Shown: positions 5,917 through 56,440 of the stretch, piece by piece
Numbering within the stretch: the stretch's first letter is position 1
Layout of the letters: every line of letters begins with the position of its first letter
NCBI GenBank assembly: GCA_903864835.1
Contig: CAIPHK010000004.1
Coordinates: 64,448 to 128,447, forward strand
Direction: 5' to 3'
Source of the DNA: an uncultured bacterium
Lineage (GTDB): Bacteria > Margulisbacteria > Marinamargulisbacteria > SXXA01
DNA length: 64,000 bases
The notes under the pieces: model-generated
What the model was told of the DNA's origin: nothing
Database searches by the model: none
What the model saw: only the letters and a program-made list of their open reading frames with translations
Position numbers and translations under genes: made by a program

Positions 5917-6795
5917 TTACGCCTTCAGTTGTCGAATGATATTCTCAATCTGCGCCACCTCCGCCTCAGTCGCAGGCACCAACGGCAACCGTGGCTGGCC
6001 GACGTTAAACCCGGATATGGTCAACGCCGCTTTCAACGGTGTGGGATTGGATGTGATAAATAGCACATCAAACACAGGTTTTAACTCCGTTTCAATTTGA
6101 CGCGCTTTGTCTTTATCGCCGGCGACAAACGCCGCAATCATCTCGGCCATCTGTTTTCCAACGATGTGTGCCGCCACCGACACTACGCCGACAGCGCCAC
6201 ATTCCATAAAATCGAGGGTTAACCCGTCGTCCCCCGAATAAATAATAAACTCAGCGGGCGTTACGTCGCGTATTTTTTGGGCTTGGTCGACGCTGCCGGC
6301 AGATTCCTTGATCCCAATAATCGTCGGAATTTCGGCCAATCGGGCGATGGTTTCTGGTTCTAGATTTCGACCCGTTCGGCCGGGGATATTGTACAAAATA
6401 ACCGGTAAATCAGTGGCCTCAGCAACCGCCTTAAAATGCTGATAGCAGCCTTCTTGCGAGGGGCGGTTGTAATAAGGTACCACTTGCAATACCCCGTCGA
6501 CGCCCAGGTCGGCCGCTTCTCGGGTGGATTCGACGGCGGTGCGAGTGCAATTCGACCCCGTGCCAGCAATAATTTTCTTTGTAGGAAACGCATCTCGAAT
6601 CGTTTTGAATAATTGGAACTCTTCATCGTGAGTCAGGGTAGGGGATTCGCCGGTGGTTCCTGCCAATACGATGGCGTCGGACCCTGTGTCATACAGGTGT
6701 TGGGCGAGGCGGATGGCCTCCGAATAATTGACGTCCCCGTTGTGATCAAATGGGGTCGCCATTGCAGTAATAATTCGGCCAAATTCAAGCGTCAT
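5917..6795 (-). CDS. dapA: 4-hydroxy-tetrahydrodipicolinate synthase.
   Basis: DapA/NAL family with the Schiff-base lysine region and the GTTGE motif. The preferred start is ATG at 6795 (MTLEFGRI...), which has the RBS agagga. The track ORF extends to 6849. Confidence 0.9.
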   Translation of the reverse strand: MTLEFGRIITAMATPFDHNGDVNYSEAIRLAQHLYDTGSDAIVLAGTTGESPTLTHDEEFQLFKTIRDAFPTKKIIAGTGSNCTRTAVESTREAADLGVDGVLQVVPYYNRPSQEGCYQHFKAVAEATDLPVILYNIPGRTGRNLEPETIARLAEIPTIIGIKESAGSVDQAQKIRDVTPAEFIIYSGDDGLTLDFMECGAVGVVSVAAHIVGKQMAEMIAAFVAGDKDKARQIETELKPVFDVLFITSNPTPLKAALTISGFNVGQPRLPLVPATEAEVAQIENIIRQLKA

Positions 6796-8202: not shown

Positions 8203-8841
8203 ATGAACACTGTTACACAATCGATTGTGACCCATTTTGGGGCGTCGCTGGATGCGTTGTATCGCTATGGGCGCCAGGAGCTTCCTCGTTTCCGATCCGA
8301 TGAGGTCCATTTATTAGCGGTTGTTTCGAACACCGAAATCTTATTGAACGATTACAAAGTCCCGTTCCTCAAGAAAATTCATTCGCTACAAGTGTTTACT
8401 TCGGCTGAATTGAACCGATCGTTGGATGTATTTCCTCTGGAATTTTTGGATATGAAATTGGACAGAGAATTAATCGTTGGAACCGATGTGTTAGCGTCCA
8501 TTGAAGTGGCCATTCACAATGTGCGTCACCAGGCCGAATTTTCCTTGAGATCCACTCTCCTTCGAGCGAGACAAGCCGCCTTACTGACCCCCAAGGACCA
8601 ACGAGGAGTGGTCGGGAACAGTGCGTCAGACGTTGTGCGGAGCTTGCGGGGACTCTTAAACATGCTTCATGGCAAGGCATTAAAAACGCCGGAGGAAGTG
8701 GTTCTTGCGACCGAAGAATGGACCTCAAAGGCATTGCCCATTTTAAGGAATCTTCTGGAGTCAGATCGGCCCGGTGCCATTGATTTTTCTGCCTACCGTA
8801 AAGAAATTGAGGTGTTGGTTGATCGGATTGATGCCCTATGA
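8203..8841 (+). CDS. Hypothetical protein. It is the first gene of an operon with the TPM and LemA genes, and its TGA stop overlaps the next ATG as ATGA.
   Basis: The ATG at 8203 has the RBS gggaga. The track ORF begins at 8071. No domain is recognised. Confidence 0.5.
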   Translation: MNTVTQSIVTHFGASLDALYRYGRQELPRFRSDEVHLLAVVSNTEILLNDYKVPFLKKIHSLQVFTSAELNRSLDVFPLEFLDMKLDRELIVGTDVLASIEVAIHNVRHQAEFSLRSTLLRARQAALLTPKDQRGVVGNSASDVVRSLRGLLNMLHGKALKTPEEVVLATEEWTSKALPILRNLLESDRPGAIDFSAYRKEIEVLVDRIDAL

Positions 8842-16165: not shown

Positions 16166-16680
16166 TATTGCGGCAATGAATCCAGTGGATCAACCAATTG
16201 GTTGCTGCGGATGGCGTCCATCACTTTTTCTTCAAGCACTTTTTTGTATAGGGCAACTTTTTCAATAAGGGAAGCATCGCCGGTTGAAAGTATTTGGACG
16301 GCCAATAGTCCCGCGTTGAATGCGCCGTTAATGGCGACCGTGGCGACCGGGACGCCGGTGGGCATTTGTACGATGGATAATAATGAATCCCATCCATCGA
16401 TTGAATTGCTCGATCGAATAGGGACGCCGACCACGGGCAACGGCGTGATGGCGGCGACCATGCCGGGAAGATGGGCAGCACCGCCAGCACCCGCAATGAT
16501 GACTTTGAGTCCTCGGTCTACAGCCGTTTGAGCGTAGGTCACTAGCCGATCTGGGGTTCGGTGGGCGGAGACAATGGTGAGCTCCGCGTTGATATTAAAT
16601 TCTTTTAGGGCATCTTGGGCTAATCTCATGATCTCAAGATCGGATTGACTACCCATGATGATTCCGACTACTGGATTCAT
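16165..16680 (-). CDS. purE: N5-carboxyaminoimidazole ribonucleotide mutase.
   Basis: 171 aa with the class I PurE motifs GSQSD and [13 protein letters not shown]. Its ATG overlaps the purK TGA stop as ATGA. Confidence 0.92.
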
Positions 16681-17926: not shown

Positions 17927-19186
17927 TTGAACGTCAGGGACATTTTTGGGTATCCTACCACGCCTATGAAACCACTCAATCGTTACGTTAATGCCCTTGT
18001 TGTGATCGCGGCTCTTGGCTATTTTGTTGATATTTATGATCTTATTTTGTTCAGTATTGTCCGTGTGCCCAGCTTAAAATCGTTAGGACTTACCGGCTCG
18101 GAATTATTTGATAGTGGGATTTTTTTGCTCAATACCCAGATGGCCGGGATGTTGGTCGGTGGGTTGTTGTGGGGCATTTTAGGCGACAAGCGTGGACGGG
18201 TCTCGGTTTTATTTGGATCGATTTTGATGTACTCGCTTGCCAATATCGCCAACGGATTTGTTCAGTCAGTTGAAATGTATGCGTTGTTACGCTTTGTCGC
18301 CGGGGTTGGGTTGGCTGGGGAGCTAGGGGCGGGCATCACGTTGGTTGCGGAAACATTGCCCAAAGAGACCAGAGGGTGGGGCACCATGATTATTGGAGGG
18401 GTTGGGATCAGTGGTGCGATTCTCGCCGGGGTTATTGCAGAACATTTTGATTGGCGAACCTGTTATTTCATTGGGGGCGGATTGGGATTATTGCTACTGT
18501 TACTTCGGGCGGGTGCGTATGAATCGGGGATGTTTAAGGCCACAACAGAAAAATCCGTTGCTCGGGGACAGTTTTTTCAGTTGTTCGCATCCAAAGAACG
18601 ATTTTTGAGGTACTTGTGTTGTATTTTGATTGGGATGCCGACCTGGTATGTCATTGGCATTTTGGTGACCTTTTCTCCAGAATTGGGGGCGGCCTTGGGT
18701 GTGCCGGGGACGATTGTGGCGGGGCGATCCGTCATGATGGCCTACGCGGGGTTGGTGGTTGGGGATATTATTAGCGGATTATTAAGTCAGTATTTGCGGT
18801 CCCGTAAGACGGTCATCGGTGCCTTTTTGGGTGCGACCGTCGTGGGCGTTGCGGGCTACTTCTTGTTTCCCTATCATTCAGTCGCTCAATTTTATTGGGC
18901 CTGTTTTGGTTTGGGTATTTCGGTCGGATACTGGGCGTTGTTTGTGACGGTCGCTGCGGAGCAATTTGGCACCAATTTAAGAGCGACTGTGGCGACGACG
19001 GCCCCTAATTTTATTCGGGCATCGTTGATTCCTCTGATTATCTTGTTTGGATATTTAAAGATTTGGATGGGTCCGATTCATTCGGCAATGGTTGTCGGGG
19101 CAATCAGTATCGGAATTGCCGCTGTTGCCCTGGCGCCGATGAAGGATACGTTTGATACGGATTTGGATTATATCGAGGGAGAATGA
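17927..19186 (+). CDS. MFS transporter.
   Basis: About 12 TM helices with MFS motifs such as GxLxDRxGR-like GILGDKRGR. The true start may be the Met at about 17966. Confidence 0.8.
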   Translation: MNVRDIFGYPTTPMKPLNRYVNALVVIAALGYFVDIYDLILFSIVRVPSLKSLGLTGSELFDSGIFLLNTQMAGMLVGGLLWGILGDKRGRVSVLFGSILMYSLANIANGFVQSVEMYALLRFVAGVGLAGELGAGITLVAETLPKETRGWGTMIIGGVGISGAILAGVIAEHFDWRTCYFIGGGLGLLLLLLRAGAYESGMFKATTEKSVARGQFFQLFASKERFLRYLCCILIGMPTWYVIGILVTFSPELGAALGVPGTIVAGRSVMMAYAGLVVGDIISGLLSQYLRSRKTVIGAFLGATVVGVAGYFLFPYHSVAQFYWACFGLGISVGYWALFVTVAAEQFGTNLRATVATTAPNFIRASLIPLIILFGYLKIWMGPIHSAMVVGAISIGIAAVALAPMKDTFDTDLDYIEGE

Positions 19187-23698: not shown

Positions 23699-23796
23699 CT
23701 GCCGTCTAACGGACCCAGGATAAAATATCCGACGGCCCTTCTCTGTTGACGCAGTCAATGGAGAGGGGTGGCCGTAGGCCGGGGTGAGGTGGGGGA
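23699..23796 (+). repeat. Repeat family A, copy 1 (about 100 bp: ...ggataaaatatccgacNgcccttctctgTTGACGyAGTCAAtggagaggggtgGccgtaggccggggtgaggtgggg).
   Basis: Near-identical to 26673..26770. The core is an imperfect palindrome and the GC-rich tail is cggggtgaggtgggg. Confidence 0.8.
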
Positions 23797-26445: not shown

Positions 26446-26527
26446 CTTTCTGAGAATGGCCGGGCCTGCGGCCACCCCTCTCCATTGACTGCGTCAACAG
26501 AGAAGGGCTGTAGGTAATATTTTATTT
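26446..26527 (-). repeat. Repeat family A, copy 2 (reverse orientation). It forms an inverted pair with copy 3.
   Basis: ccacccctctccattgactgcgtcaacagagaagggctg is the exact reverse complement of the family-A core. Confidence 0.8.
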
Positions 26528-26672
26528 GGTTTGAAGTTTGGTGCAGCGCTGTCTAAACTTCTTGTCATAATAGCAATGGGACTTGCCCGTTTAATGTGTC
26601 CAACGACTTCTATTTATCGAATTGGATGGCGAATTTCATAGTGCAAAAAATAATATCAAAACTATCGTTATC

Positions 26673-26770
26673 TCTGGCGTCTAACTGATCCAGGATAAAA
26701 ATATCCGACAGCCCTTCTCTGTTGACGTAGTCAATGGAGAGGGGTGGCCGTAGGCCGGGGTGAGGTGGGG
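26673..26770 (+). repeat. Repeat family A, copy 3.
   Basis: It matches copy 1 at about 90% over 98 bp. Confidence 0.8.
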
Positions 26771-35618: not shown

Positions 35619-38600
35619 ATGACGGGAACCGTCGTGGTAATGACCGGCAAAATCCAATCGATCACCCCCAAGGGATCCGGCATGGTGTTGGTGCCTGTTG
35701 CGATCGGGTTAAGTACCACTCCAATTCCAGATGATGTCGAGATCAAAGAAACTCTGATCCAAGCGTTAAACGAATTTGAAGGTATCGGGACCGTCGCAAA
35801 GTGGGATGAAGGCAGAATCCGCTCTGAATTAGGTATTCTGAGTATCTCGGACTTAACGATTGAATCCGACATATTGCCCTTATCAAAAAGTCCAGATGGG
35901 CCGCTGCGGTCAGACCAGGTTCGTGCCGGCTGGACGGTGGATGCGTTAGAGTTGATTCAACAGATATCGGACGATGAGCCCACCACATCCATGGGAGATG
36001 GGCGTAAAGTCGGGGACCGGCAGGTGATGTCATACGGGGTGTTTCGGTTACCTTTTGCCCAACTTACCCGACCTCCGATCGACGCTGCATCTGAGGCAAT
36101 TTTGATTAACATGACCGTTACTTTAAGGTTGGATGGCACCACAGTTCCATTTTTAACCCCGGTATTGGACAGCGTACAATTTGATCGTTTGGCACGTTCG
36201 TCGTCGGTTCATCATGTCACGGTCCCATCGGGGGATGTATCCACCGGAGATGGATCTTTGGATGCTCAGATGGTTCATCACCGGTTGCGGTCGTGGGCGA
36301 ACGACGCAGCGACTATTCATTCTCGGTCAAAATCTCCCGCAGACCGAGTCGTGATTGTCCATCATTATGCGGGAAAAGAGTCGAGGCATTTACCCGCTTG
36401 GATACCGTTGAGCTACTTGCGACATTCGTTTGACGACATTCATTTATCCCTTCAAATAGTGATTTCAACCGACGACTCAATTGAGCCGCATTCGGCCGAT
36501 GTTTTACTTAATTTGTTGGGAGTGTCGTTAATTCATCCCCGATTGGTTGAACGGACGTTTCGAGACACACCATCGTTATTAGAGGTTATCCCCAATATGG
36601 TGGTGTCGCCCGAGGATCGGTTTGATCACTATCGAACGGGAATGACTAAGGCCCTCAAACGGATCATGGCAAAAAATGGGGATACCGATATGACGACCCA
36701 TATTGGGTCCAAAACGGTGGAAGCCTATCTCCTTGATGAAAAAATGGCAGCGCAACTTGGCACACGATCGATCATGGGACAATCCCGTTTTGGGCTACAG
36801 TTCTTTGTCGAGATGGCCGAATCCAATCGCCAAAATGCTGGATCTCACCCCCCCACCTTGGAACAGGTTGGACTTTATCAGTTTGTGTTAGGTGGGGTTA
36901 AGTTTAGTTGGGATTCGACCAATTTGATTCCGTTATTGGACACCTTACAATCGGGAAAAACCCCTCAATTTAACCCGGTTAGTGAAGATATCGAAGATAT
37001 TGGCTCTGATAAGGGCGGTTTAAGTTATTCAAAATTCAAGGCAACCTACGCCAATATCTGTGATTCCCAACGGATTACACTAGGTAGTCACTTGCGTCCG
37101 ATCACCAAAGTGGCCGTTGTGGCCATTGTTGGAGACGGAATTGCTGCGATGAAGTCTGCATTGGAAGCGGCTGAAGTTGAGACGGTAAAATCGGTGATCA
37201 TCATCGGCAAAATGCCGTTACCGGGCGGGAGATTACGATATGCAGTTGCGCCGGACCACGTCCACACCAAACAATTGGCCGATAGCCATCTCGATCAGAT
37301 TCTCACTCACCCTAAGGTAAGGTTATATACTGGGATCAAGGCATCGGGGGACTTGGTTCAGGAATTGCATGACATGGGGTGCATGGTCGTGGTCGCCCCG
37401 GGTTCCGCGACCCGAAAATTGACCCCCGATGACTGGGGGCGCCATGTCGTGACGGGCAGTAAAATGGTTGCATGGTATAACTCCAAACCTAATAAACACG
37501 GTAAAGGGCATCGCGACTGTCCAGTGTCATTGGAACACTCAACGTTGATCATTAATGGCCAGGGAAATGCCGCATTAGATGTGGCCAGAATGTTGGCAAG
37601 ATCCCCAAACAATGCCGAATTTAAGTCTCAAATTCGACCAGAAGTATTCGATACGCTATCCACCAAAAAAGTGACGACACTCTTGGTTTTGGGACGTCAG
37701 CCGCATTACAAAACCCGATTTTCGGCCACGGAGCTTGCCCAGTTAAGGGAATTATCTCAACAAGGACAATTCACAATTGAAAGTGAGTCATCGTTGGACA
37801 AAGATATTCATAAAATTAATGCGCAGCTCGTGGAGCTGGGCTGGCCGTTCGATGTCTCACTGACCCCAGACTATATTCGAAATGCTACCCGATTACAGGC
37901 CCTTTTGGCGGCCGTCGCGATTTCCATGGCGGCGGCTGCGGGGCTGGAACGATTCTCAGAGTGTGCCAATTTGGTGCAGACGGTTGCATTTTTTGATCAC
38001 TATTCTCTCACTCAAATCAGCGATCGTGGGGACTCCATGCCAAGCGTCGGCTGCCCGGTAATCCGATTTAAATTTGGAACCGTGATTTCGGATATCGATC
38101 CCAGTGACGAATCGGTTAACGTCCATTTTTCGGGAGGTCGTCACGACTCCATCACCTGTGGAGGCATTGTTGCCTGCGTTGGATTTCTCCAAGGAAAAGA
38201 AGCCAACGGAATTCGGGTCGACGACAGTGGCGACGTGTTTGCAAACGGTGTTCGCCTCACCTCCGCAATGGCGGCAGGGCAAGCTGTGACCGGGCGTGGG
38301 ACTGTTGGCGAAAGCACGGCAGGGCTCGAAATGGGGATTCAACGCCGGCTGAGTTCTCAAAAATGGATATCTCCAAATGGGGATCGATGGGTCAGCGACC
38401 GATACCCTCAGGCATTTACGACGGATGAGGTGAGAATGATTCAAGCCGCTGTGCGGAAGGGCGACGGTTACACGGTCTCGATGGAGGGTCTGACGCAGTG
38501 GCAAGCCGCCTATCGATTCGGCAAATCAGTGATGCCTACCGGTTCAATCAGTTATACGGCGGCGGCCTCGGATCCAAAAAAAATGGCGCCGCCGGTGTCC

Positions 38601-40046
38601 TATGACGTCGTGGTCGGAACACTGGGACCCAGTGGATTTTCAAAGATCCGAATGCATCGCGCCGAAGGTGTTGCCGCATCACGGTCCGTTAAAGACACGG
38701 TGAATGCGTTGCTGGGGGACGCAATTGGGGGATCATGTAACTCAGGCTCCTGCCAGGGGTGTACCATAGGGATTACGGATATCGAAGATCTGAGTCGATT
38801 TGGGTTAGCCTGTCTCCAAAAAAATAGTGACGTTACCCGGGTGTTTATACCGGAATCTCCTGTTTTGCCCCATATGGTTAGCAACGTATCGACTCACTTC
38901 AAAGCCCAAATCGATGATCGATCCAGCTGTGGGATCGGAGTGCATTCATTTTCAACGGCGTCCCCGGCGCACACTCAGGAAATATTGCGCCATCTCGCGC
39001 GAGATCGATCACGAGGCGCGGGGATTCAGGGCCAAGGCGATGGCGCTGGGGTGGTGCTGTCATTGGATCATGGGTATTTCAAAGCGCGAATATTCCATGA
39101 ACAAAAAAAAGTGCTTCCTGACCGGTTTGGCGTCATCCAGATTTTTGCAGATGAATCAGATATTGACCGAATTGAAGAACGGATAAAAGACCGGGAATTA
39201 GAGATCCTCGCGACTCGAAAAGTACCTATGAATGCCTCCAATTTTCATTCTCCTGACCGCCGTCACGTGGATGTGTATCAGATTATCGTCCCCGTAACGG
39301 ATTACACAAAAAATCAACTGAAAGAGATGTCAATTAACGCCGGATCCTGGTTACCCAATCGATACGATCTCTGTTCGGCATCGACCGAGTGGATTACCTA
39401 TAAATTGGCCGGTTATTCTGATGAATTAACGGTATTTGAAGACCTAACCTCTGATCAGCACTATCACACTCAATTCGGACTATCCCACGCCCGATTTAGT
39501 ACAACGACATTACCTCATCCTGGTCGTGCGCATCCTCATTTAGGATTAATTCATAACGGCGAAATACAGACCAAGGCTGCGATTATCAAATGGTTGGTGT
39601 CCAAAGCGATTGAACTTAAAACACGCAAGATACCGATGATGGTCGATGTCGCTGAATTACAAAGTGGGTCAGACTCTGCCGTTCTTCAAATTTATATTTC
39701 CGCTTTAGAATTGCTTTATCCGGAGTATACGTTACAAGAGCACCTTACGTTAATTTTTAGGTCCCACAACGGAAATCCAGCCATCGTGGCGCGGGGGAAA
39801 TCTGATGGGCTCCCTTTGGTGAGCGGACCGTGCAACATGGCGATGATTGGCGACGAGGGAGAGATCGTATTTGTGCGGGCTGAAAATGGGTTTAGACCCG
39901 CGACGCTCGTTCAATCGGAGTCGGACCTATCGATTACATCCGCAAGATATTGCCCTACATTCGACGAAATTCAACAGGTTCAGGAAGGGGCAATCATTTC
40001 AGTTGTGAATGGAAAAGTTATCTTGGACCAGGATACCACGGGATAA
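35619..40046 (+). CDS. Giant 1475-aa multidomain protein. It has an N-terminal region of about 480 aa with unknown function, an FprA/adrenodoxin-reductase/GltD-like FAD-NAD(P)H oxidoreductase domain, and a class-II (Ntn) glutamine amidotransferase domain of the glutamate-synthase large-subunit type.
   Basis: A Rossmann motif VAVVAIVGDGIAAMKSA. A second dinucleotide motif NGQGNAALDVARMLAR (compare FprA GNGNVALDVARIL). The FAD return segment VFANGVRLTSAMAAGQAVTG. GATase-2 marks are SCGIGVHSF...GDGAGVVL and ...HARFSTTTLPHP...HNGEIQT (compare GltB HNGEINT). The GltS FMN/synthase core is absent. The 5' 250 nt overlap the ATPase remnant, so the true start may be a downstream Met. Confidence 0.7.
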   Translation: MTGTVVVMTGKIQSITPKGSGMVLVPVAIGLSTTPIPDDVEIKETLIQALNEFEGIGTVAKWDEGRIRSELGILSISDLTIESDILPLSKSPDGPLRSDQVRAGWTVDALELIQQISDDEPTTSMGDGRKVGDRQVMSYGVFRLPFAQLTRPPIDAASEAILINMTVTLRLDGTTVPFLTPVLDSVQFDRLARSSSVHHVTVPSGDVSTGDGSLDAQMVHHRLRSWANDAATIHSRSKSPADRVVIVHHYAGKESRHLPAWIPLSYLRHSFDDIHLSLQIVISTDDSIEPHSADVLLNLLGVSLIHPRLVERTFRDTPSLLEVIPNMVVSPEDRFDHYRTGMTKALKRIMAKNGDTDMTTHIGSKTVEAYLLDEKMAAQLGTRSIMGQSRFGLQFFVEMAESNRQNAGSHPPTLEQVGLYQFVLGGVKFSWDSTNLIPLLDTLQSGKTPQFNPVSEDIEDIGSDKGGLSYSKFKATYANICDSQRITLGSHLRPITKVAVVAIVGDGIAAMKSALEAAEVETVKSVIIIGKMPLPGGRLRYAVAPDHVHTKQLADSHLDQILTHPKVRLYTGIKASGDLVQELHDMGCMVVVAPGSATRKLTPDDWGRHVVTGSKMVAWYNSKPNKHGKGHRDCPVSLEHSTLIINGQGNAALDVARMLARSPNNAEFKSQIRPEVFDTLSTKKVTTLLVLGRQPHYKTRFSATELAQLRELSQQGQFTIESESSLDKDIHKINAQLVELGWPFDVSLTPDYIRNATRLQALLAAVAISMAAAAGLERFSECANLVQTVAFFDHYSLTQISDRGDSMPSVGCPVIRFKFGTVISDIDPSDESVNVHFSGGRHDSITCGGIVACVGFLQGKEANGIRVDDSGDVFANGVRLTSAMAAGQAVTGRGTVGESTAGLEMGIQRRLSSQKWISPNGDRWVSDRYPQAFTTDEVRMIQAAVRKGDGYTVSMEGLTQWQAAYRFGKSVMPTGSISYTAAASDPKKMAPPVSYDVVVGTLGPSGFSKIRMHRAEGVAASRSVKDTVNALLGDAIGGSCNSGSCQGCTIGITDIEDLSRFGLACLQKNSDVTRVFIPESPVLPHMVSNVSTHFKAQIDDRSSCGIGVHSFSTASPAHTQEILRHLARDRSRGAGIQGQGDGAGVVLSLDHGYFKARIFHEQKKVLPDRFGVIQIFADESDIDRIEERIKDRELEILATRKVPMNASNFHSPDRRHVDVYQIIVPVTDYTKNQLKEMSINAGSWLPNRYDLCSASTEWITYKLAGYSDELTVFEDLTSDQHYHTQFGLSHARFSTTTLPHPGRAHPHLGLIHNGEIQTKAAIIKWLVSKAIELKTRKIPMMVDVAELQSGSDSAVLQIYISALELLYPEYTLQEHLTLIFRSHNGNPAIVARGKSDGLPLVSGPCNMAMIGDEGEIVFVRAENGFRPATLVQSESDLSITSARYCPTFDEIQQVQEGAIISVVNGKVILDQDTTG

Positions 40047-40099
40047 AAGGTGCCACCTTGGACCGCGTTCTCGACCGGTGTTGTTGCTCCGGCACATAT
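40025..40099 (+). repeat. Repeat family B, copy 2. It contains the last codons and the TAA stop of the 1475-aa gene.
   Basis: See copy 1. Confidence 0.8.
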
Positions 40100-40726
40100 T
40101 TCACTTGTTTTGTTCCCCAAAAATAGGGGGAAAAGGGTGTGGCGATCTTATTTATGGGATCGCGGTCCCTTATCAGGGATAGTTTTGTCCGTTAAATATA
40201 TAAATCTCTAGGGGGAAGTCGGATGGTTCATTTTAAACAGTTGTTTCTGCGCCTGTTCTAGAACCTATACCTGATCCATTCCGTTTTGCGTCAGCCCCGC
40301 CGGAAATTACCCCTCCAGCGGTTGAAGATGTTGCGGTGCGGGCGATTCTGATCGGGCCCCCGGTATCGATGGTATACCCAGAATCAGTGAGTTTGGCGGA
40401 TTCTACAGCGCGCAGCTTCCGGACTCAGATGTTTGACCCTTCAAGCTTGCCACCCGCTCCAACGGGGCCTGTCAATGTTCGAAAAGAAGAGAGGAAAAGA
40501 CTTGTCCCAGAATCTTAATGGCGAGGATTGCCTCAACGAACATCATTTTTTGGAGCCCATCGAGTCAATATCTCGCATTTTAGTAGCGTAGGAGATTATT
40601 GGTGCGGATGAACTGTCGTTAAAATAGCCTTAGTCCTAAACGACTATTTAGGTAATACTCCCCGATTAGAGTCTGTCGTAAAAAATAAAAGGGAGTGACA
40701 CTATTCGTCATTGGAAGTCGTTATGT

Positions 40727-41146
40727 TTGTCGGTTGTCTTGTTGGGCGCTTTGTCTATGCCCGCGCTTGCGATTCCCAGGTCTACTCTTATCGGTATCCA
40801 GATGGGTTTTGTGAATGGAGTGTATTTGTCGGTTCCTGAGGAAGGTCAAAATTTTTGGTCTGGGGCCATCGGGTTCCAAGACAACGATATTGCAGTGGCG
40901 GGTCAATATGGAAAAGTATATTCCTTCCCGAATTCGGCCAGTCTGTACTGGTATTATGGATTATCGGGATTTGCTAGACTTGATCCCAATACACCGGTTG
41001 TTGGCGGCGGTATTCCGTTTGGGATTTTGATTCCTCTCCATGAGGGGCCTCAAATTTTCTTGGAGGTGACGCCGTATATCTCGGTCTCGGATAATAAAAT
41101 GCAGACTGGATTTGCACCGTCGGTTAAGGTTGGGGTTCCGTTTTAG
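40727..41146 (+). CDS. Small outer-membrane beta-barrel protein (OmpW/OmpA-like, 8-strand class).
   Basis: Signal peptide ...ALSMPALA, alternating amphipathic strands, and a C-terminal ...VKVGVPF ending in Phe. The track start is a TTG codon. Confidence 0.55.
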   Translation: MSVVLLGALSMPALAIPRSTLIGIQMGFVNGVYLSVPEEGQNFWSGAIGFQDNDIAVAGQYGKVYSFPNSASLYWYYGLSGFARLDPNTPVVGGGIPFGILIPLHEGPQIFLEVTPYISVSDNKMQTGFAPSVKVGVPF

Positions 41147-41201
41147 GTTCCAGGAAACTACGGTTGAAAACCGTTTCAAACCGGTCGGACGGATATTAAA
41201 A

Positions 41202-41585
41202 TTACCGTTTCTGTAGCCCGCACACGTTAGAAATGGTGTGTCGCCGTTTTGCGATGGCGGTATATCCAATCCCAAATACCCAGAAAAATAGCGGGATTTT
41301 GAGGAGCCAATAAATGGGGGTCATCCACCATATCTGACGAGAGACCTCCTTAAAAAAATGGGCTCCTTTGAGAACCCGGCCGTCTTTGGCGATCAGATGG
41401 ATTGACGTCATCAATTCAATTTCATCGATTTGAACCGCATCCAGTAGTCCAGGATCTTGTATCGGACGAACTTTGAATCCATACCGTTCAAAAAATGCCT
41501 TTTTCTTCCCCACGAATGTAGTGCACATTCCGCAAGATCCATCAAAAATAATAAGACCTGCAGGACCCGTTTCTAGTGGTTTCAC
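41202..41585 (-). CDS. DCC1-like thiol-disulfide oxidoreductase family protein (DUF393).
   Basis: An N-terminal FDGSCGMC motif (DGxCxxC). Confidence 0.7.
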   Translation of the reverse strand: MKPLETGPAGLIIFDGSCGMCTTFVGKKKAFFERYGFKVRPIQDPGLLDAVQIDEIELMTSIHLIAKDGRVLKGAHFFKEVSRQIWWMTPIYWLLKIPLFFWVFGIGYTAIAKRRHTISNVCGLQKR

Positions 41586-41614
41586 TTGGACTCCCTCCGA
41601 TTTTTTTTAGCGTG

Positions 41615-42568
41615 TTAATGAGTATGATTTCGCCATTGGTCACATAAGTTTTGCGCGGCCTGCGTCCATTTGGGGTAGGAAAATTCGAATCCACTTTCGA
41701 TCAAGCGAGTGGGGTGGACCTTTCGACTTTTGAGAATCAATTCTGATTCGGTTTGGATCAGAACTGCACCGATCTTTAATAGCCATTCTGGCGTCGGTAT
41801 TCCCCATTTAAATCCCCACGCATCGCGGAGTTCCTTCATAAAGTCAGAATTGGTTACGGGAAACGGGGTCCCGAAAATAAATGCCCCGGATAGATCGCTC
41901 CGGTGAATCAAATGCTCGATCGCTCGGATCACGTCCAATTCATGAATCCAGGAAACAAATTGATCTCCGGCGCCGACACGGCCTCCCAATCCCAATTGAA
42001 CGAGTTTGAGAAGGTACGTAAATACACTTCCGGGATCGGGATTAAAAACCAAACTTGTTCGCATGACGACTTTGCGGGTGTGGGGGAGGGCGACTAATGC
42101 GAATTCACCTTCCCATGCCCGAGCAACGTCAATGCTGAATCGCCATTTCGAGGGCGCATTGGGCTCTTCTCCACCCAACACACCGGTATATTCATCATTG
42201 GGTGTATTAAATTGGTGGTCGTATAAGGTCGCGGTGGACGCCTGGAGCCACACGGATGGGGATGCCCCTCGTTCAAGGATTGCCCGCTCTAACACCCGAA
42301 TCGAACGGACTCGAGAGCTCCAAATGTCGCATTTGTTTTTGGGGGTATATCGGCAGTTGACGGAACGTCCGGTTAAATTGATTATCACGTCCGCGCCATC
42401 CAGCTCCTGAATCCACGGTCCCATTGTTTGGCCGTCCCATCGCACCGTTTTCCAATCGGTTTGGGCGGGGTGGCGAGTGAGCACCACAACCTCGTGATTA
42501 TTATCATGAAAATGTCTTGCTAACAGGTCTCCCATTTGACCACTTCCACCGGGTATTACAATTTTCAT
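41615..42568 (-). CDS. Epimerase family protein YfcH (TIGR01777; NAD-binding Rossmann plus DUF1731).
   Basis: MKIVIPGGSGQMG Rossmann motif at the N-terminus, 317 aa, and a DUF1731-like C-terminus. Confidence 0.8.
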   Translation of the reverse strand: MKIVIPGGSGQMGDLLARHFHDNNHEVVVLTRHPAQTDWKTVRWDGQTMGPWIQELDGADVIINLTGRSVNCRYTPKNKCDIWSSRVRSIRVLERAILERGASPSVWLQASTATLYDHQFNTPNDEYTGVLGGEEPNAPSKWRFSIDVARAWEGEFALVALPHTRKVVMRTSLVFNPDPGSVFTYLLKLVQLGLGGRVGAGDQFVSWIHELDVIRAIEHLIHRSDLSGAFIFGTPFPVTNSDFMKELRDAWGFKWGIPTPEWLLKIGAVLIQTESELILKSRKVHPTRLIESGFEFSYPKWTQAAQNLCDQWRNHTH

Positions 42569-43026
42569 ACAGAGAGCCTACCTTCTAATTTTTGCTTGAG
42601 GATATGGTTGCGTGATTCCAAAAATCGGGTCAAATACGGTGTTAAAACAATGGATGAAACCCATCGCCCTAAAAATCCAAATGGGGATTCAAACTCAAAC
42701 TGGTCTACCATCATGGTTGCGCCATCGTCGTGAAAAAAATGGTGGGTATGGGCCATTTTTGAAAACGCGCCCTGGGTCATGACGTCTCGAAAGTAGACGG
42801 GACGACGCATTTTGGAGATCACGACGGTGAGGCGTTGAACAATGCCAAAATGACGGGCCTGCCAGGTGACGGATTCGTTTTCTTCGATAAGTCCAGAGGT
42901 GCGGCCCGCAATGGCTTTTTCTTGAGTAGCGCCGGTACTTATTTGATGAAAGTCGATATCTCGACATAAGTCGAAGACCTGTTCGATCGGGGCATGGATC
43001 TTCGTAAGGAGCACGATTTTAGCCAT
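42565..43026 (-). CDS. SRPBCC (START/Bet v1-like, polyketide-cyclase family) protein.
   Basis: 153 aa. It overlaps yfcH as ATGA and is a common genomic partner of YfcH. Confidence 0.65.
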   Translation of the reverse strand: MAKIVLLTKIHAPIEQVFDLCRDIDFHQISTGATQEKAIAGRTSGLIEENESVTWQARHFGIVQRLTVVISKMRRPVYFRDVMTQGAFSKMAHTHHFFHDDGATMMVDQFEFESPFGFLGRWVSSIVLTPYLTRFLESRNHILKQKLEGRLSV

Positions 43027-43561
43027 TATTTTTATTCCTTATCAGACTAAGAATGGGTTTAAAAAATCGATTTTGTTCGAACTTTAAAACGGTTTCTAAC
43101 AACTGGTCACATTTTTTTCCGAGGCTATGTATATCGACGAGGACCTTTTTAAACGCGATTTCTTCGGGGCCAAATGGAGTCTCATTATCGATTTCCTTCA
43201 AAAGATGTTCGAGGGTTTTCATCATTGGATGAAGTTCTCTTTTTGTTCGTTCTCTTGCAATTTTTTGAGCTACTTCCCAAATGTCTTTTTCAGCGTAAAA
43301 ATATTCTTTTCGCTCACCGGGGCGGCTCTCTCGGTAAATCAGGCCCCAAATCATCAGGTCTCTTAAATTCATATTGGCGTTGCCTCGCGAAATAGTGAGG
43401 GCGCTCATAATCTGATCCGTGGTTAATGCGTGATCGCTAGCCAACAATAGTCCGTGAAGTTGGGCCATCGTTTTATTGATTCCCCATTCCATTCCGACAG
43501 TGCCCCATAGCTGGACAAATTTTTCTTTTAATTCAGACGGTTGCATCTTGATTGTCACCAA
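43019..43561 (-). CDS. GbsR/MarR-family transcriptional regulator.
   Basis: 180 aa with an N-terminal winged-HTH region similar to the GbsR/OpcR choline-sensing repressors. It is the first gene of a 4-gene minus-strand operon. Confidence 0.65.
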   Translation of the reverse strand: MVTIKMQPSELKEKFVQLWGTVGMEWGINKTMAQLHGLLLASDHALTTDQIMSALTISRGNANMNLRDLMIWGLIYRESRPGERKEYFYAEKDIWEVAQKIARERTKRELHPMMKTLEHLLKEIDNETPFGPEEIAFKKVLVDIHSLGKKCDQLLETVLKFEQNRFFKPILSLIRNKNNG

Positions 43562-44374: not shown

Positions 44375-44385
44375 TTAAAGTTTAG

Positions 44386-44450
44386 GTTCCAGGATACCAC
44401 GATTAAAAAGGTGCCACCTTAGACTCAAAAGTGGAGATGGCACCTTTGAA
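44386..44450 (+). repeat. Repeat family B, copy 3, a variant with a strong terminator-like hairpin aaaggtgcca...tggcaccttt. A fragment at 41151..41173 is a fourth, partial copy.
   Basis: The first 27 nt are shared with copies 1 and 2. A 10-bp perfect stem follows. Confidence 0.7.
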
Positions 44451-46065: not shown

Positions 46066-46157
46066 TGGCGGAAAAGGTGGGATTCGAACCCACGGTAATG
46101 TTGCCACTACACACGCTTTCCAAGCGTGCTCCTTAAGCCACTCGGACACTTTTCCGC
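46066..46157 (-). tRNA. tRNA-Ser (anticodon GGA), type II with a long variable arm.
   Basis: The reverse complement GCGGAAAAGTGTCCGAGTGGCTTAAGGAGCACGCTTGGAAAGCGTG...GGTTCGAATCCCACCTTTTCCGCCA shows a cloverleaf with anticodon loop ttGGAaa. Confidence 0.85.
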
Positions 46158-55362: not shown

Positions 55363-56391
55363 GTGTCCATGACATTATTAAGTTTGGTAATCGGGATTGT
55401 GATTTCGTTTTTTCTGTCCCACAAGTTAAAGAAAAAGTCGGGCCAACTTTTTGGTTTATTGTCGAAGGCCTGTGTGATCGGGGTGGGATTTGGTCTTCAT
55501 GTGGAGGACTTGCAAGTGGTGGATCTTCCACGAATTGGCATGATTGTCGGGGGGATCGGGATTACGATTGTGGCGGGTTATTTCTTGGGACGGCTGATGC
55601 GGATGTCGGCATCCATGGCGACGCTCATTACCGTGGGCACTGCGATTTGCGGGGGAAGTGCAATTGCAACGGTGGCGCCGCTTATTCGTGCAAAACGGCG
55701 AGATGTCGTGGTGGCACTGGCTTCAATTTTTTTATTAAATAGCGTGGCCATAATCATTTTTCCCGTTGTAGGGCGGGCCGTTGGATTGTCGGATTCGATG
55801 TTTGGCTTATGGGCGGGTATTGCGATTCATGATACGAGTAGTGTCATCGGCGCGGCGTCAATTTTTAGTGAAGCGTCGCTTAAAATAGCGGTGATTATCA
55901 AGGCGATTCGGACCCTGTTTATCGTGCCAATTGCGATTGGTATTTCCGTCTTGAGTCGTCGAAAATCAGAACCGACTGGGTTTCCATGGTTTTTGGGGAT
56001 TTTTTTAATTGCGATCGGCGTGGTGCAATTTTTACCAGCGGGAGAACCCTTTTTTCACATGGTTTATAGTGTCTCTAAGCAGATGACGGTGGTTCCTATT
56101 TTTTTACTGGGCACTTCATTTTCTGCCAAGGAAACGGAAGAAGGTGGGGTGAAGCCCCTCGTTTTTGCGAGTGTGTTATGGGTGACTGTCGCGGTAGCGG
56201 TTTTGGGAGTTATTTTTTTAACGAAAGTTCACCAGCGTCCATCCTGGGGTCCACCTCACCCCGCCCTACGGGCACCCCTCTCCACGCACTTCGTACGTAG
56301 AGAAGGGCTGTCGGATATTTTAAGAACGGATCGCTATCCGTCTGTGCAGATTAATACAAATATAACCTCCAGCCCTTCTCTGTTGACGTAG
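55363..56391 (+). CDS. YeiH/UPF0324-family membrane protein (putative sulfate exporter family).
   Basis: A polytopic protein in the classic divergent arrangement with a LysR gene. The last 45 codons or so run into a family-A inverted repeat, so the real stop is probably upstream or the tail is artefactual. Confidence 0.7.
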   Translation: MSMTLLSLVIGIVISFFLSHKLKKKSGQLFGLLSKACVIGVGFGLHVEDLQVVDLPRIGMIVGGIGITIVAGYFLGRLMRMSASMATLITVGTAICGGSAIATVAPLIRAKRRDVVVALASIFLLNSVAIIIFPVVGRAVGLSDSMFGLWAGIAIHDTSSVIGAASIFSEASLKIAVIIKAIRTLFIVPIAIGISVLSRRKSEPTGFPWFLGIFLIAIGVVQFLPAGEPFFHMVYSVSKQMTVVPIFLLGTSFSAKETEEGGVKPLVFASVLWVTVAVAVLGVIFLTKVHQRPSWGPPHPALRAPLSTHFVRREGLSDILRTDRYPSVQINTNITSSPSLLT

Positions 56392-56428
56392 TCAATGGAG
56401 AGGGGTGCCCGTAGGGCGGGGTGAGGTG
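56251..56428. repeat. Repeat family A copies 4 (reverse, 56251..56345) and 5 (forward, 56371..56428). They form a near-perfect inverted repeat separated by about 25 bp.
   Basis: The 32-nt arms cacctcaccccgccctacgggcacccctctcc and ggagaggggtgcccgtagggcggggtgaggtg are exact reverse complements. Copy 4 carries a variant core (cacgcacttcgtacgtag). Confidence 0.8.
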
Positions 56429-56440
56429 AAGTCACAAAAT

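What the first reader, a model, noticed from the sequence alone, without database searches (positions are those of the whole stretch)
35619..40046. Giant 1475-aa fusion protein: unknown 480-aa N-terminal region, FprA/GltD-like flavoprotein reductase, and glutamate-synthase-type class-II glutamine amidotransferase, without the GltS synthase core.
Glutamate synthases pair a GATase-2 domain (Cys1, ...HNGEINT) with an FMN/Fe-S synthase domain in GltB and place the NAD(P)H/FAD reductase in a separate GltD. This ORF instead puts a GltD/FprA-like reductase (GNAALDVARML, compare FprA GNGNVALDVARIL) upstream of a GATase-2 domain (SCGIG..., GDGAG, HNGEIQT), with no FMN/GXGXG synthase module between or after them. 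A long N-terminal region has no detectable homology. The gene lies exactly where a P-type ATPase has lost its N-terminus, and it ends inside a mobile-looking repeat (family B). This is an unusual architecture that could couple glutamine-derived ammonia to a flavin-dependent reductive step.
Basis: partly seen in the sequence, partly recalled or inferred. Interest (0 to 1): 0.8.

Follow-up and report, generated by a model that had tools for sequence, protein, structure and literature searches.

The report
Truncated remnant of shuffled glutamate synthase
The 1475-residue reading frame is what remains after a 3.7-kb deletion cut the first 984 codons off a rare, domain-shuffled, single-chain glutamate synthase gene, so its missing "synthase core" reflects recent gene decay and not a new enzyme design.

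Summary
The ORF (35619-40046, +) is real. The "unknown" N-terminus is a glutamate-synthase central domain, and a 2Fe-2S ferredoxin module lies between the reductase and the amidotransferase.

The missing synthase core is a deletion. A 92%-identical metagenome contig (L001) carries 3,672 extra bases at window 35567-35573. Those bases hold the 5' end of the divergent P-type ATPase, the intergenic region, and 984 more codons encoding the FMN/3Fe-4S synthase domain and two GXGXG beta-helix domains. Joining the two gives an in-frame 2,476-aa protein.

The order synthase, GXGXG, GXGXG-like, central, reductase, amidotransferase recurs in 2,300-2,660-aa proteins of Marinamargulisbacteria, an unnamed MAG, Tetrahymena thermophila and two unnamed assemblies. 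Ferredoxin cysteines were seen in five of the aligned members. Catalytic and cluster-binding residues are invariant.

The deletion is reproduced in independent assemblies. The neighbouring ATPase and TPR genes also carry nonsense codons.

Verdict: a recently truncated, probably dead copy of an uncharacterised glutamate synthase variant. That variant family is the interesting part, mainly because its catalytic amidotransferase cysteine is internal.

The parts
35567..35573 (.). Deletion junction. Sequence to the left is collinear with L001 1399-5898 and sequence to the right with L001 9571-12496. 3,672 bp present in L001 are absent here. Only a few bases of imperfect microhomology occur at the join.
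   Evidence: blastn; three-way alignment
35568..35618 (+). 17 in-frame codons (SGVAVVNSVGRRAFDG...) identical to P0001 residues 985-1001. They lie upstream of the first available start codon, and an in-frame stop lies at 35505-35507. This is stranded coding sequence.
35619..40046 (+). 1475-codon remnant ORF, equal to codons 1002-2476 of the reconstructed 2,476-aa gene. The public gene call P0207 starts at GTG 35685.
35619..35723 (+). Last turns of the second GXGXG-type beta-helix domain. The rest of that domain is deleted.
   Evidence: The family profile of this region hits GltS C-terminal domains (7mfm 2.4e-10, 1llw 2.7e-8) and FwdC (2e-4)
35919..36725 (+). Glutamate synthase central domain (aa 101-369)
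   Evidence: Pfam PF04898 E 7.9e-13; aligned to the 7mfm central domain
37107..38393 (+). Adrenodoxin-reductase/FprA-type FAD/NADPH reductase (aa ~497-925). It has GDGIAA and GQGNAALDVAR dinucleotide motifs and a conserved C-terminal GQAxTGRGTVG motif. It has no GltD-type 4Fe-4S region.
   Evidence: The C-terminal boundary is inferred from motif conservation, not from a solved-structure alignment.
38571..38858 (+). Plant-type/adrenodoxin-like 2Fe-2S ferredoxin module (aa ~985-1080; C1040-x4-C1045-x2-C1048 ... C1065)
   Evidence: Three invariant Cys in family alignment A3; Pfam Fer2 in relative P0064; almost all PDB hits of the profile of this region are 2Fe-2S ferredoxins or ferredoxin-like domains
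38928..40043 (+). Class-II (Ntn) glutamine amidotransferase domain (aa 1104-1475). The catalytic Cys1104 is internal. R, DGAG, RFST, HNGE and SDS motifs are kept.
34286..35573 (-). P-type ATPase pseudogene. Its 5' end was removed by the same deletion, and it has an in-frame TAG at 34862-34864 where L001 has TAT.
40026..40097 (+). Copy of a ~73-nt dispersed repeat that supplies the last codons and the stop of the ORF (...DQDTTG*). A 93%-identical relative, P0206, ends differently (...ILPFL).

Best explanation
The ORF is the 3' 60% of a gene that, when intact, encodes a ~2,476-aa single-chain, domain-shuffled glutamate synthase. The domain order is: N-terminal region, FMN/3Fe-4S synthase domain, GXGXG beta-helix, second GXGXG-like beta-helix, central domain, adrenodoxin-reductase/FprA-type FAD reductase, 2Fe-2S ferredoxin, class-II glutamine amidotransferase.

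Inferred chemistry of the intact enzyme: NADPH reduces the FAD. Electrons then pass through the built-in 2Fe-2S ferredoxin to the 3Fe-4S cluster and FMN of the synthase site. The C-terminal amidotransferase hydrolyses glutamine and passes ammonia to 2-oxoglutarate. In effect this is a ferredoxin-type GltS fused to its own ferredoxin and ferredoxin reductase, in place of GltD. The nucleophile Cys is internal, with no Met before it. The domain would therefore have to be freed by self-cleavage, as the short propeptides of GltB and PurF are, or else work in an unprecedented way.

In this genome a single 3,672-bp deletion removed the promoter region, the start codon and codons 1-984 (the synthase domain, the first GXGXG domain and most of the second). 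It also removed the 5' end of the divergently transcribed P-type ATPase. What remains cannot make glutamate and has lost its native expression signals. It is most likely a very young pseudogene.

Shown: the deletion, the domain content, the conserved family architecture and residues, and reproducibility across assemblies.

Inferred: the electron path, self-cleavage, and lack of function of the remnant.
For: - Sister locus. L001 is 92% identical and collinear on both sides of window 35567-35573, and carries 3,672 extra bases there. Its protein P0001 is 93% identical to window aa 1-648. Upstream of that it has ~1,001 more residues with Glu_synthase (1.5e-80) and GXGXG (1.9e-30). Splicing L001 6620-9570 onto window 35567-40046 gives one open frame of 2,476 aa.
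- Conserved architecture. The same order is found in P0058 (Marinamargulisbacteria, 2,548 aa), P0061 (2,334 aa), P0059, P0064, P0209 (Tetrahymena, 2,661 aa) and P0210.
- Conserved residues. The 3Fe-4S Cys, three ferredoxin Cys, the GATase Cys and the glutamine-binding motifs are invariant across 25-33% identity.
- Domain identities. The reductase profile matches adrenodoxin reductase (4e-35) and FprA (1.7e-29), against GltD at 3e-11 to 3e-7. The ferredoxin profile hits almost only 2Fe-2S ferredoxins or ferredoxin-like domains.
- Stranded coding sequence. Homologous codons lie upstream of the first start codon.
- Reproducibility. The truncated form occurs in independent assemblies. L085 is 99.98% identical over 11.9 kb including the junction.
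- Neighbourhood decay. The ATPase has TAG plus the 5' deletion. The TPR gene has TGA at 33938-33940 where L001 has GGA.
- No local copy. The missing part is not elsewhere in the 64-kb window.
- Past constraint. dN/dS against L001 is 0.16, so the gene was constrained until recently.
Against: - The remnant has no internal stop or frameshift over 4.4 kb. Under neutrality that is expected only if less than ~1-2% divergence has passed since the deletion (P of no stop is 0.18 at 1% and 0.03 at 2%). A constrained, still-used product is therefore not excluded.
- A start codon (ATG 35619, ATG 35682 or GTG 35685) is available.
- Two weak promoter-like sites lie upstream. They are not above the shuffle expectation.
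- The only close full-length comparator, L001, itself carries an in-frame TGA at codon 1650. No intact copy from this clade was seen.
- Only 64 kb of the genome was visible, so relocation of the 5' half cannot be ruled out.
- Enzyme activity, the electron path and self-cleavage are untested for any family member.
Confidence: 0.8

Rival explanations
1. One reading: the 1475-aa protein is a functional enzyme in its own right. It would be a reductase-ferredoxin-amidotransferase that couples glutamine hydrolysis to a flavin-dependent step without a GltS synthase site, expressed from a new promoter inside the ATPase remnant.
For: - The ORF is intact over 1475 codons, with start codons available.
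- All catalytic motifs of the reductase, ferredoxin and GATase are kept.
- The truncated allele occurs in several samples.
Against: - Every relative with this domain order has the synthase core, and no relative has the short form.
- The boundary falls inside a beta-helix domain and leaves 17 orphan codons, which is not a domain boundary.
- The same event destroyed the neighbouring gene, and adjacent genes carry nonsense codons.
- From established GltS enzymology (my own knowledge): glutaminase activity depends on the synthase site being loaded.
- Promoter-like hits are at chance level.
Confidence: 0.1
2. Gene fission, not loss: the 5' half (synthase plus GXGXG) was moved elsewhere in the genome, and the two halves assemble as subunits, as GltS domains do in some archaea.
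For: - GltS domains can function as separate polypeptides in archaea (my own knowledge).
- The remnant is still open.
Against: - The flanks are exactly collinear with L001, as for a simple deletion.
- The deleted block also contains the ATPase 5' end and the intergenic region.
- There is no trace of it in the 64-kb window by tblastn or blastn.
- The break lies inside a domain.
Confidence: 0.05
3. Assembly artefact: the junction is a mis-join or a collapsed region of a metagenome assembly.
For: The source is a metagenome-assembled genome. One short contig (L096) carrying part of the gene has 118 unrelated bases at its end.
Against: - The identical junction and flanks were recovered in separately assembled samples. 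L085 from ERZ18643718 is 99.98% identical over 11,877 bp. The look-up also lists an ERZ1426581 contig whose called genes match (the same 1453-aa product and neighbours), but no DNA was returned for it.
- There is no repeat at the junction that could cause a collapse.
Confidence: 0.03

Closest known systems
Bacterial NADPH-glutamate synthase GltB/GltD (Azospirillum 2vdc/6s6s, B. subtilis GltAB 7mfm)
   Same: It shares all four GltB modules (Ntn amidotransferase, central, FMN/3Fe-4S synthase, GXGXG beta-helix) and uses an NAD(P)H-dependent flavoprotein as electron entry. The catalytic Cys, glutamine-binding motifs and 3Fe-4S cysteines are conserved. The canonical order and the essential role of Cys1 are described in bioRxiv 10.1101/2021.04.12.439528.
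   Different: - The order is shuffled: synthase, GXGXG, GXGXG-like, central, reductase, ferredoxin, amidotransferase, against amidotransferase, central, synthase, GXGXG.
- The beta-helix domain is duplicated.
- The reductase is of AdR/FprA type and lacks the two 4Fe-4S clusters of GltD.
- A 2Fe-2S ferredoxin is inserted.
- The catalytic Cys is about 2,100 residues from the N-terminus.
- The synthase domain carries a ~85-aa insertion between the second and third cluster Cys.
- Identity to canonical GltB is only ~25-30% outside the FMN domain.
- The window copy additionally lacks the synthase and GXGXG parts.
Ferredoxin-dependent glutamate synthase (Synechocystis Fd-GltS, 1llw/1ofd)
   Same: It is a single-chain GltS whose 3Fe-4S/FMN site is reduced by a 2Fe-2S ferredoxin. 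The GATase aligns from Cys1.
   Different: Here the ferredoxin and a ferredoxin reductase are fused into the same polypeptide, so the inferred ultimate donor is NADPH. The domain order also differs.
Eukaryotic NADH-GOGAT (single-chain GltB-GltD fusion, ~2,100 aa)
   Same: It is a giant single polypeptide combining the GltS modules with a pyridine-nucleotide flavoprotein. Examples appear among lower-ranked hits (P0268, P0278).
   Different: Those keep the canonical order and a GltD-type domain with Fer4_20 (PF14691). This family has neither.
Adrenodoxin reductase/adrenodoxin and M. tuberculosis FprA; phthalate dioxygenase reductase as a reductase-2Fe-2S fusion
   Same: The reductase profile matches 1cjc (4e-35) and 1lqt (1.7e-29). 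It is followed by a 2Fe-2S module whose best PDB match is the ferredoxin domain of 2pia.
   Different: Those systems deliver electrons to P450s or oxygenases, not to a GltS synthase site, and are not fused to amidotransferase domains.

Membership tests
Glutamate synthase large subunit (GltB-type) | Class-II (Ntn) glutamine amidotransferase domain with catalytic Cys and glutamine-binding motifs | tested here: met
   PF00310 E 1.1e-24. Cys1104 aligns with Cys1 of 1llw. R, DGAG, RFST, HNGE and SDS motifs are invariant in the family.
Glutamate synthase large subunit (GltB-type) | Catalytic Cys is the N-terminal residue of the mature chain, with the domain first in the polypeptide | tested here: not met
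   The Cys is residue 1104 of the ORF (2105 of the reconstructed protein). No Met precedes it in any member. Whether cleavage exposes it cannot be tested here.
Glutamate synthase large subunit (GltB-type) | Central domain | tested here: met
   PF04898 48.9 bits against a cut-off of 22.8, aa 101-369
Glutamate synthase large subunit (GltB-type) | FMN-binding synthase domain with 3Fe-4S cluster | tested here: not met
   Absent from the window ORF and from the whole window. Present in sister locus L001/P0001 (PF01645 1.5e-80) and in all distant relatives.
Glutamate synthase large subunit (GltB-type) | GXGXG beta-helix domain | tested here: not met
   The ORF has no PF01493 hit. Only the last ~35 residues of the second beta-helix remain. 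The domain is present in relatives.
GltD (NADPH-GltS small subunit) | N-terminal 2x[4Fe-4S] region plus FAD/NADPH domains most similar to GltD, DPD or NfnB | tested here: not met
   There is no Cys cluster between the central domain and the Rossmann fold. The family profile scores AdR at 4e-35 and FprA at 1.7e-29 but GltD only at 3e-11 to 3e-7.
Adrenodoxin reductase / FprA family | Two GxGxxA/G dinucleotide motifs and overall sequence similarity | tested here: met
   VGDGIAA and GQGNAALDVAR motifs. The hit to 1cjc covers chain residues 3-216. The C-terminal FAD-domain motif GQAxTGRGTVG is conserved. The 3D fold was not confirmed because the AF2 model had pLDDT 47.
Plant-type/adrenodoxin-type 2Fe-2S ferredoxin | CX4CX2C...C cluster motif in a ~90-aa beta-grasp domain | tested here: met
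   C-x4-C-x2-C is invariant and a fourth Cys is present in all aligned members. Pfam Fer2 scores 3.7e-5 in P0064. Almost all PDB hits of the profile are 2Fe-2S ferredoxins or ferredoxin-like domains, with best E 6e-4. The E-values are modest and the fold is not confirmed.
Shuffled single-chain GltS family (unnamed; P0058, P0061, P0209 and others) | Collinear full-length similarity with the order synthase, GXGXG, GXGXG-like, central, AdR-like, Fd, GATase | tested here: met
   The ORF aligns collinearly with the C-terminal ~1,475 residues of all members. The reconstructed 2,476-aa protein aligns end to end. The window copy itself lacks the first three modules.
Pseudogene (truncated) | Loss of the native start, promoter region and essential domains relative to orthologues | tested here: met
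Pseudogene (truncated) | Internal stops or frameshifts, or absence of expression | tested here: not met
   There are no internal stops over 1475 codons. Expression cannot be tested with these tools.

The most novel reading that the evidence does not exclude
The intact family (2,300-2,660 aa; Marinamargulisbacteria, the window's clade, one unnamed MAG, Tetrahymena and other unnamed assemblies) is an undescribed, self-sufficient NADPH-dependent glutamate synthase. In it a fused AdR-type reductase and 2Fe-2S ferredoxin replace GltD. Its Ntn amidotransferase sits at the C-terminus behind ~2,100 residues. Either the protein cuts itself at the X-Cys bond to create the catalytic N-terminal cysteine, which would be the longest 'propeptide' known for an Ntn amidotransferase, or it is the first class-II amidotransferase to work with an internal cysteine.
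Probability: 0.5. Interest if true: 0.65.

Novelty: new variant of a known kind. Interest (0 to 1): 0.45.

Why it matters
For this genome the finding is a caution. The striking "core-less" fusion is a deletion product within a short stretch of decaying genes, and it should be annotated as a truncated gene, not as a new enzyme.

The value lies in what the remnant pointed to. It belongs to a very rare family: only about six full-length members plus a few fragments were found, four of them in an exhaustive scan of 1.84 billion cluster representatives. The family shows that the four GltS modules tolerate reordering, that GltD can be replaced by an adrenodoxin-reductase/2Fe-2S pair, and that an Ntn amidotransferase can be encoded far from the N-terminus.

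That gives a direct experimental test of how strictly class-II amidotransferases need a free N-terminal cysteine, and of how the ammonia tunnel and electron wire are rebuilt after shuffling.

The family's occurrence in both Margulisbacteria-like bacteria and a ciliate also raises the question of gene transfer between them. I did not test this.

Tried and rejected
- The genome-contig scan with the family alignment chose FMN-domain motifs shared with every gltB.
- The metagenome-contig scan with the window protein found nothing. The second scan, with the reductase alignment, was swamped by FprA-like genes. Its only family hit, L111, is the P0061 locus already in hand.
- The AF2 model of aa 480-1103 with a 4-sequence alignment had mean pLDDT 47. 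I ran no fold search on it and draw nothing from it.
- Genetic code 25 (UGA = Gly) was considered. Two in-frame TGAs correspond to GGA in the sister lineage: TPR gene 33938-33940 in the window, and codon 1650 in L001. A third TGA interrupts the L001 ATPase. I rejected recoding because TGA ends real genes here, including at ATGA overlaps (8838-8841, 16677-16680; also 19184-19186 and 6785-6787), and because the long genes contain no in-frame TGA.
- P0057, a 785-aa call with a different N-terminus, looked like a third structural variant. Its contig L096 is 100% identical to window 37768-42529 apart from 118 unrelated bases at the contig end, so it is probably a contig-end artefact.
- Insertion in L001, as opposed to deletion in the window, was rejected. 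Distant relatives have the long form, and the extra block also carries the ATPase 5' end.
- Five literature searches found no paper on a shuffled or ferredoxin-fused GltS. The library is incomplete, so this is only weak evidence that the family is undescribed.
- The synteny walk from sdhA in the 98%-identical lineage (L092-L095) did not reach the gene. That lineage has a serine-recombinase island upstream of mdh.

Full report
**Observation**

Window 35619-40046 (+) is an uninterrupted ORF of 1475 codons. Pfam finds three things in it:
- GATase_2 at aa 1104-1368 (E 1.1e-24).
- Glu_syn_central at aa 101-369 (48.9 bits against a gathering score of 22.8).
- A sub-threshold Pyr_redox_2 match at aa 501-661.

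NCBIfam's best model is the glutamate synthase large subunit, but at 116 bits against a cut-off of 1047.

Against solved structures, the amidotransferase aligns from Cys1104 onto Cys1 of Synechocystis Fd-GltS (1llw) and onto B. subtilis GltA (7mfm). Residues 501-713 match adrenodoxin reductase (1cjc, 9e-16) and FprA (1lqt, 6e-13).

The "unknown 480-aa N-terminus" is largely a GltS central domain.

**The ORF is not a whole gene**

The only close relative in 5.8 billion proteins is P0001 (1649 aa). It is 93% identical to window residues 1-648, and that match begins at its residue 1002. Upstream it carries Glu_synthase (FMN domain, 1.5e-80) and GXGXG (1.9e-30).

Its contig L001 has the same neighbours as the window: a TPR gene, then a P-type ATPase on the opposite strand, then the giant gene. 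blastn gives two collinear blocks at about 92% identity:
- L001 1399-5898 matches window 31087-35573.
- L001 9571-12496 matches window 35567-38492.

The window therefore lacks 3,672 bp. That block holds the first ~97 codons of the called ATPase ORF, the intergenic region, and codons 1-984 of the giant gene.

The join shows only a few bases of imperfect microhomology. Seventeen codons identical to P0001 985-1001 lie stranded upstream of the first available start codon, just after antisense ATPase sequence and an in-frame stop. Splicing L001 6620-9570 onto window 35567-40046 yields one open frame of 2,476 aa. No copy of the missing part exists elsewhere in the 64 kb.

**The long form is ancestral and belongs to a family**

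An exhaustive HMMER scan of 1.84 billion cluster representatives with window aa 276-1475 found a handful of giant proteins above the background of ordinary FprA-like and GltB proteins:
- P0058 (2,548 aa, 1e-107)
- P0059 (2,631 aa)
- P0061 (2,334 aa)
- P0064 (2,474 aa)
- a few fragments

A profile search added P0209 (2,661 aa), annotated "glutamate synthase, putative" from Tetrahymena thermophila SB210, and the partial P0210. P0058 is RAP34829.1 from a Candidatus Marinamargulisbacteria single-cell genome.

All of them show the same order in Pfam: Glu_synthase, GXGXG, Glu_syn_central, Pyr_redox_2, GATase_2. P0064 also scores Fer2 between the last two.

In the five-sequence alignment (25-33% identity to the reconstructed protein), the following are invariant:
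- the three 3Fe-4S cysteines of the synthase domain;
- a C-x4-C-x2-C motif in the linker;
- the amidotransferase Cys;
- the R-G, D-G-x-G, H-x-R-x-x-T, H-N-G-E and S-D-S motifs.

Profiles of sub-regions support the remaining assignments:
- The linker region hits almost only 2Fe-2S ferredoxins or ferredoxin-like domains (2pia ferredoxin domain 6e-4, plant ferredoxins, putidaredoxin, adrenodoxin-like).
- The reductase hits adrenodoxin reductase (4e-35) and FprA (1.7e-29) far above GltD (3e-11 to 3e-7).
- The segment between GXGXG and the central domain is a second GXGXG-type beta-helix (GltS C-terminal domain 2.4e-10, FwdC 2e-4).

The intact bacterial genes sit alone among housekeeping genes: argG-argH-ndk...efp in Marinamargulisbacteria, and tamB-bamA...uvrA in the other MAG. 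That placement fits a primary-metabolism role.

**How the intact enzyme most likely works (inferred)**

- NADPH reduces the AdR-type FAD.
- The fused 2Fe-2S ferredoxin carries electrons to the 3Fe-4S cluster and FMN.
- Glutamine is hydrolysed at the amidotransferase, and ammonia is channelled to 2-oxoglutarate at the synthase site.

This amounts to a ferredoxin-type GltS fused to its own ferredoxin and ferredoxin reductase, with the modules reordered.

One feature does not fit known enzymology. Class-II amidotransferases use the free amino group of an N-terminal Cys, and a C1A mutant of B. subtilis GltA is inactive (bioRxiv 10.1101/2021.04.12.439528). Here the Cys is ~2,100 residues in, and no Met precedes it in any member. 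Self-cleavage is the natural hypothesis, by analogy with the short propeptides of GltB and PurF (my own knowledge). It is untested.

**Status of the window copy**

The deletion is not an assembly error:
- The public gene call P0207, which is the ORF read from GTG 35685, occurs on four contigs with the same neighbours.
- L085, from a separately assembled sample, is 99.98% identical to window 31615-43489, including the junction.

The remnant lacks its promoter region, its start codon, the whole synthase site and most of both beta-helix domains. The break lies inside a domain.

The neighbourhood is decaying too:
- The ATPase has an in-frame TAG at 34862-34864 (TAT in L001) in addition to its 5' loss.
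- The TPR gene has TGA at 33938-33940 where L001 has GGA.
- L001 itself has TGA at codon 1650 of the giant gene, inside the GxGNAALDVAR motif, and a TGA in its ATPase.

Yet dN/dS between the two lineages over the shared 2.9 kb is 0.16, and the remnant has no internal stop. About 3.9% of random substitutions in the ORF would create a stop. Under neutrality the chance of no stop is 0.18 at 1% divergence and 0.03 at 2%. Either the deletion is very recent or the remnant is still constrained. I favour recent loss (about 0.8 for truncation by deletion and about 0.7 for non-function). The functional-remnant reading gets about 0.1.

**Host**

The window is bacterial chromosome: three tRNAs and the genes ilvB, sdhABC, mdh, gshA and argB. 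Its SdhA is 84% identical to one from Candidatus Margulisiibacteriota. It is ~80% identical to proteins from Margulisbacteria and from Hydrogenedentes. The assignment to Margulisbacteria-like bacteria is tentative, but it matches the phylum of P0058.

**Comparison and novelty**

The window ORF fails membership of GltB proper. It has no synthase domain, no GXGXG domain, and its Cys is not N-terminal. It also fails membership of GltD. It is a truncated member of an unnamed, rare, shuffled GltS family.

That family is present in public databases under generic names. I found no paper describing its architecture, although the searched library is incomplete.

I rate the family as a new variant of a known kind. 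The window feature itself is an ordinary deletion remnant. The overall interest score of 0.45 reflects mainly the family.

Noticed in passing
window 33938-33940 (TPR gene, minus strand, 31823-34225): The 800-aa TPR gene of L001 is split in the window into 95-aa and 704-aa ORFs by an in-frame TGA where L001 has GGA (Gly). With the ATPase and the giant gene, that makes three adjacent genes with lesions.
   Followed up: yes
L001 11567-11569 and L001 6225-6227; window 33938-33940: Two of the three in-frame TGAs (window TPR, L001 giant gene) align with GGA (Gly) in the sister lineage, which resembles genetic code 25; the third, in the L001 ATPase, lies inside the block deleted from the window. TGA clearly terminates other genes here (for example ATGA overlaps at 8838-8841 and 16677-16680), so these are probably plain G-to-T nonsense mutations. 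The coincidence remains unexplained.
   Followed up: partly
window 30999-31069, 40026-40097, 44384-44424: A ~73-nt dispersed repeat (CCAGGATACCACGGGATAAAAGGTGCCACCTTGGAC...GGCAC) with a possible GTGCC/GGCAC stem. Two copies supply the last codons and the TAA stop of unrelated ORFs (30427-31017 and the giant ORF). A 93%-identical relative of the giant protein ends differently, so the element seems to have replaced the native 3' end.
   Followed up: partly
window 23713-23794, 26460-26530, 26687-26770, 56251-56332, 56359-56431: A second family of ~70-82-nt elements, present in direct and inverted orientation and often in pairs 37-174 nt apart. They look like REP- or MITE-type intergenic repeats.
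   Followed up: no
window 28403-28653 and 29780-30015 (inside the 845-aa ORF 27665-30202, minus strand): Near-perfect tandem direct repeats of 104 nt (100% identical, spacing 147) and 95 nt (93%, spacing 141) lie inside a large ORF with no Pfam or NCBIfam match. It is a repeat-containing orphan protein.
   Followed up: no
L096 1-118 (contig ERZ27313351 k141_564847): This contig is identical to window 37768-42529 but starts with 118 unrelated bases. That produces a 785-aa gene call (P0057) with a foreign N-terminus. It is probably a contig-end artefact, but a further structural variant is not excluded.
   Followed up: partly
L092-L095 (lineage with 98%-identical SdhA), upstream of mdh; compare window 40.1-47.0 kb and tRNA-Ser 46066-46155: In that lineage a serine-recombinase/DUF7222/DprA-like island lies directly upstream of mdh. 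The window has Rrf2, a tRNA-Ser, Fic and other genes there. Synteny breaks next to the tRNA-Ser, which suggests an integration hotspot.
   Followed up: no
P0209 (Tetrahymena thermophila SB210) against P0058 (Marinamargulisbacteria): The same shuffled giant GltS architecture occurs in a ciliate and in a few bacteria at only ~27-33% identity. The patchy distribution may reflect ancient gene transfer between domains. No phylogeny was attempted.
   Followed up: no
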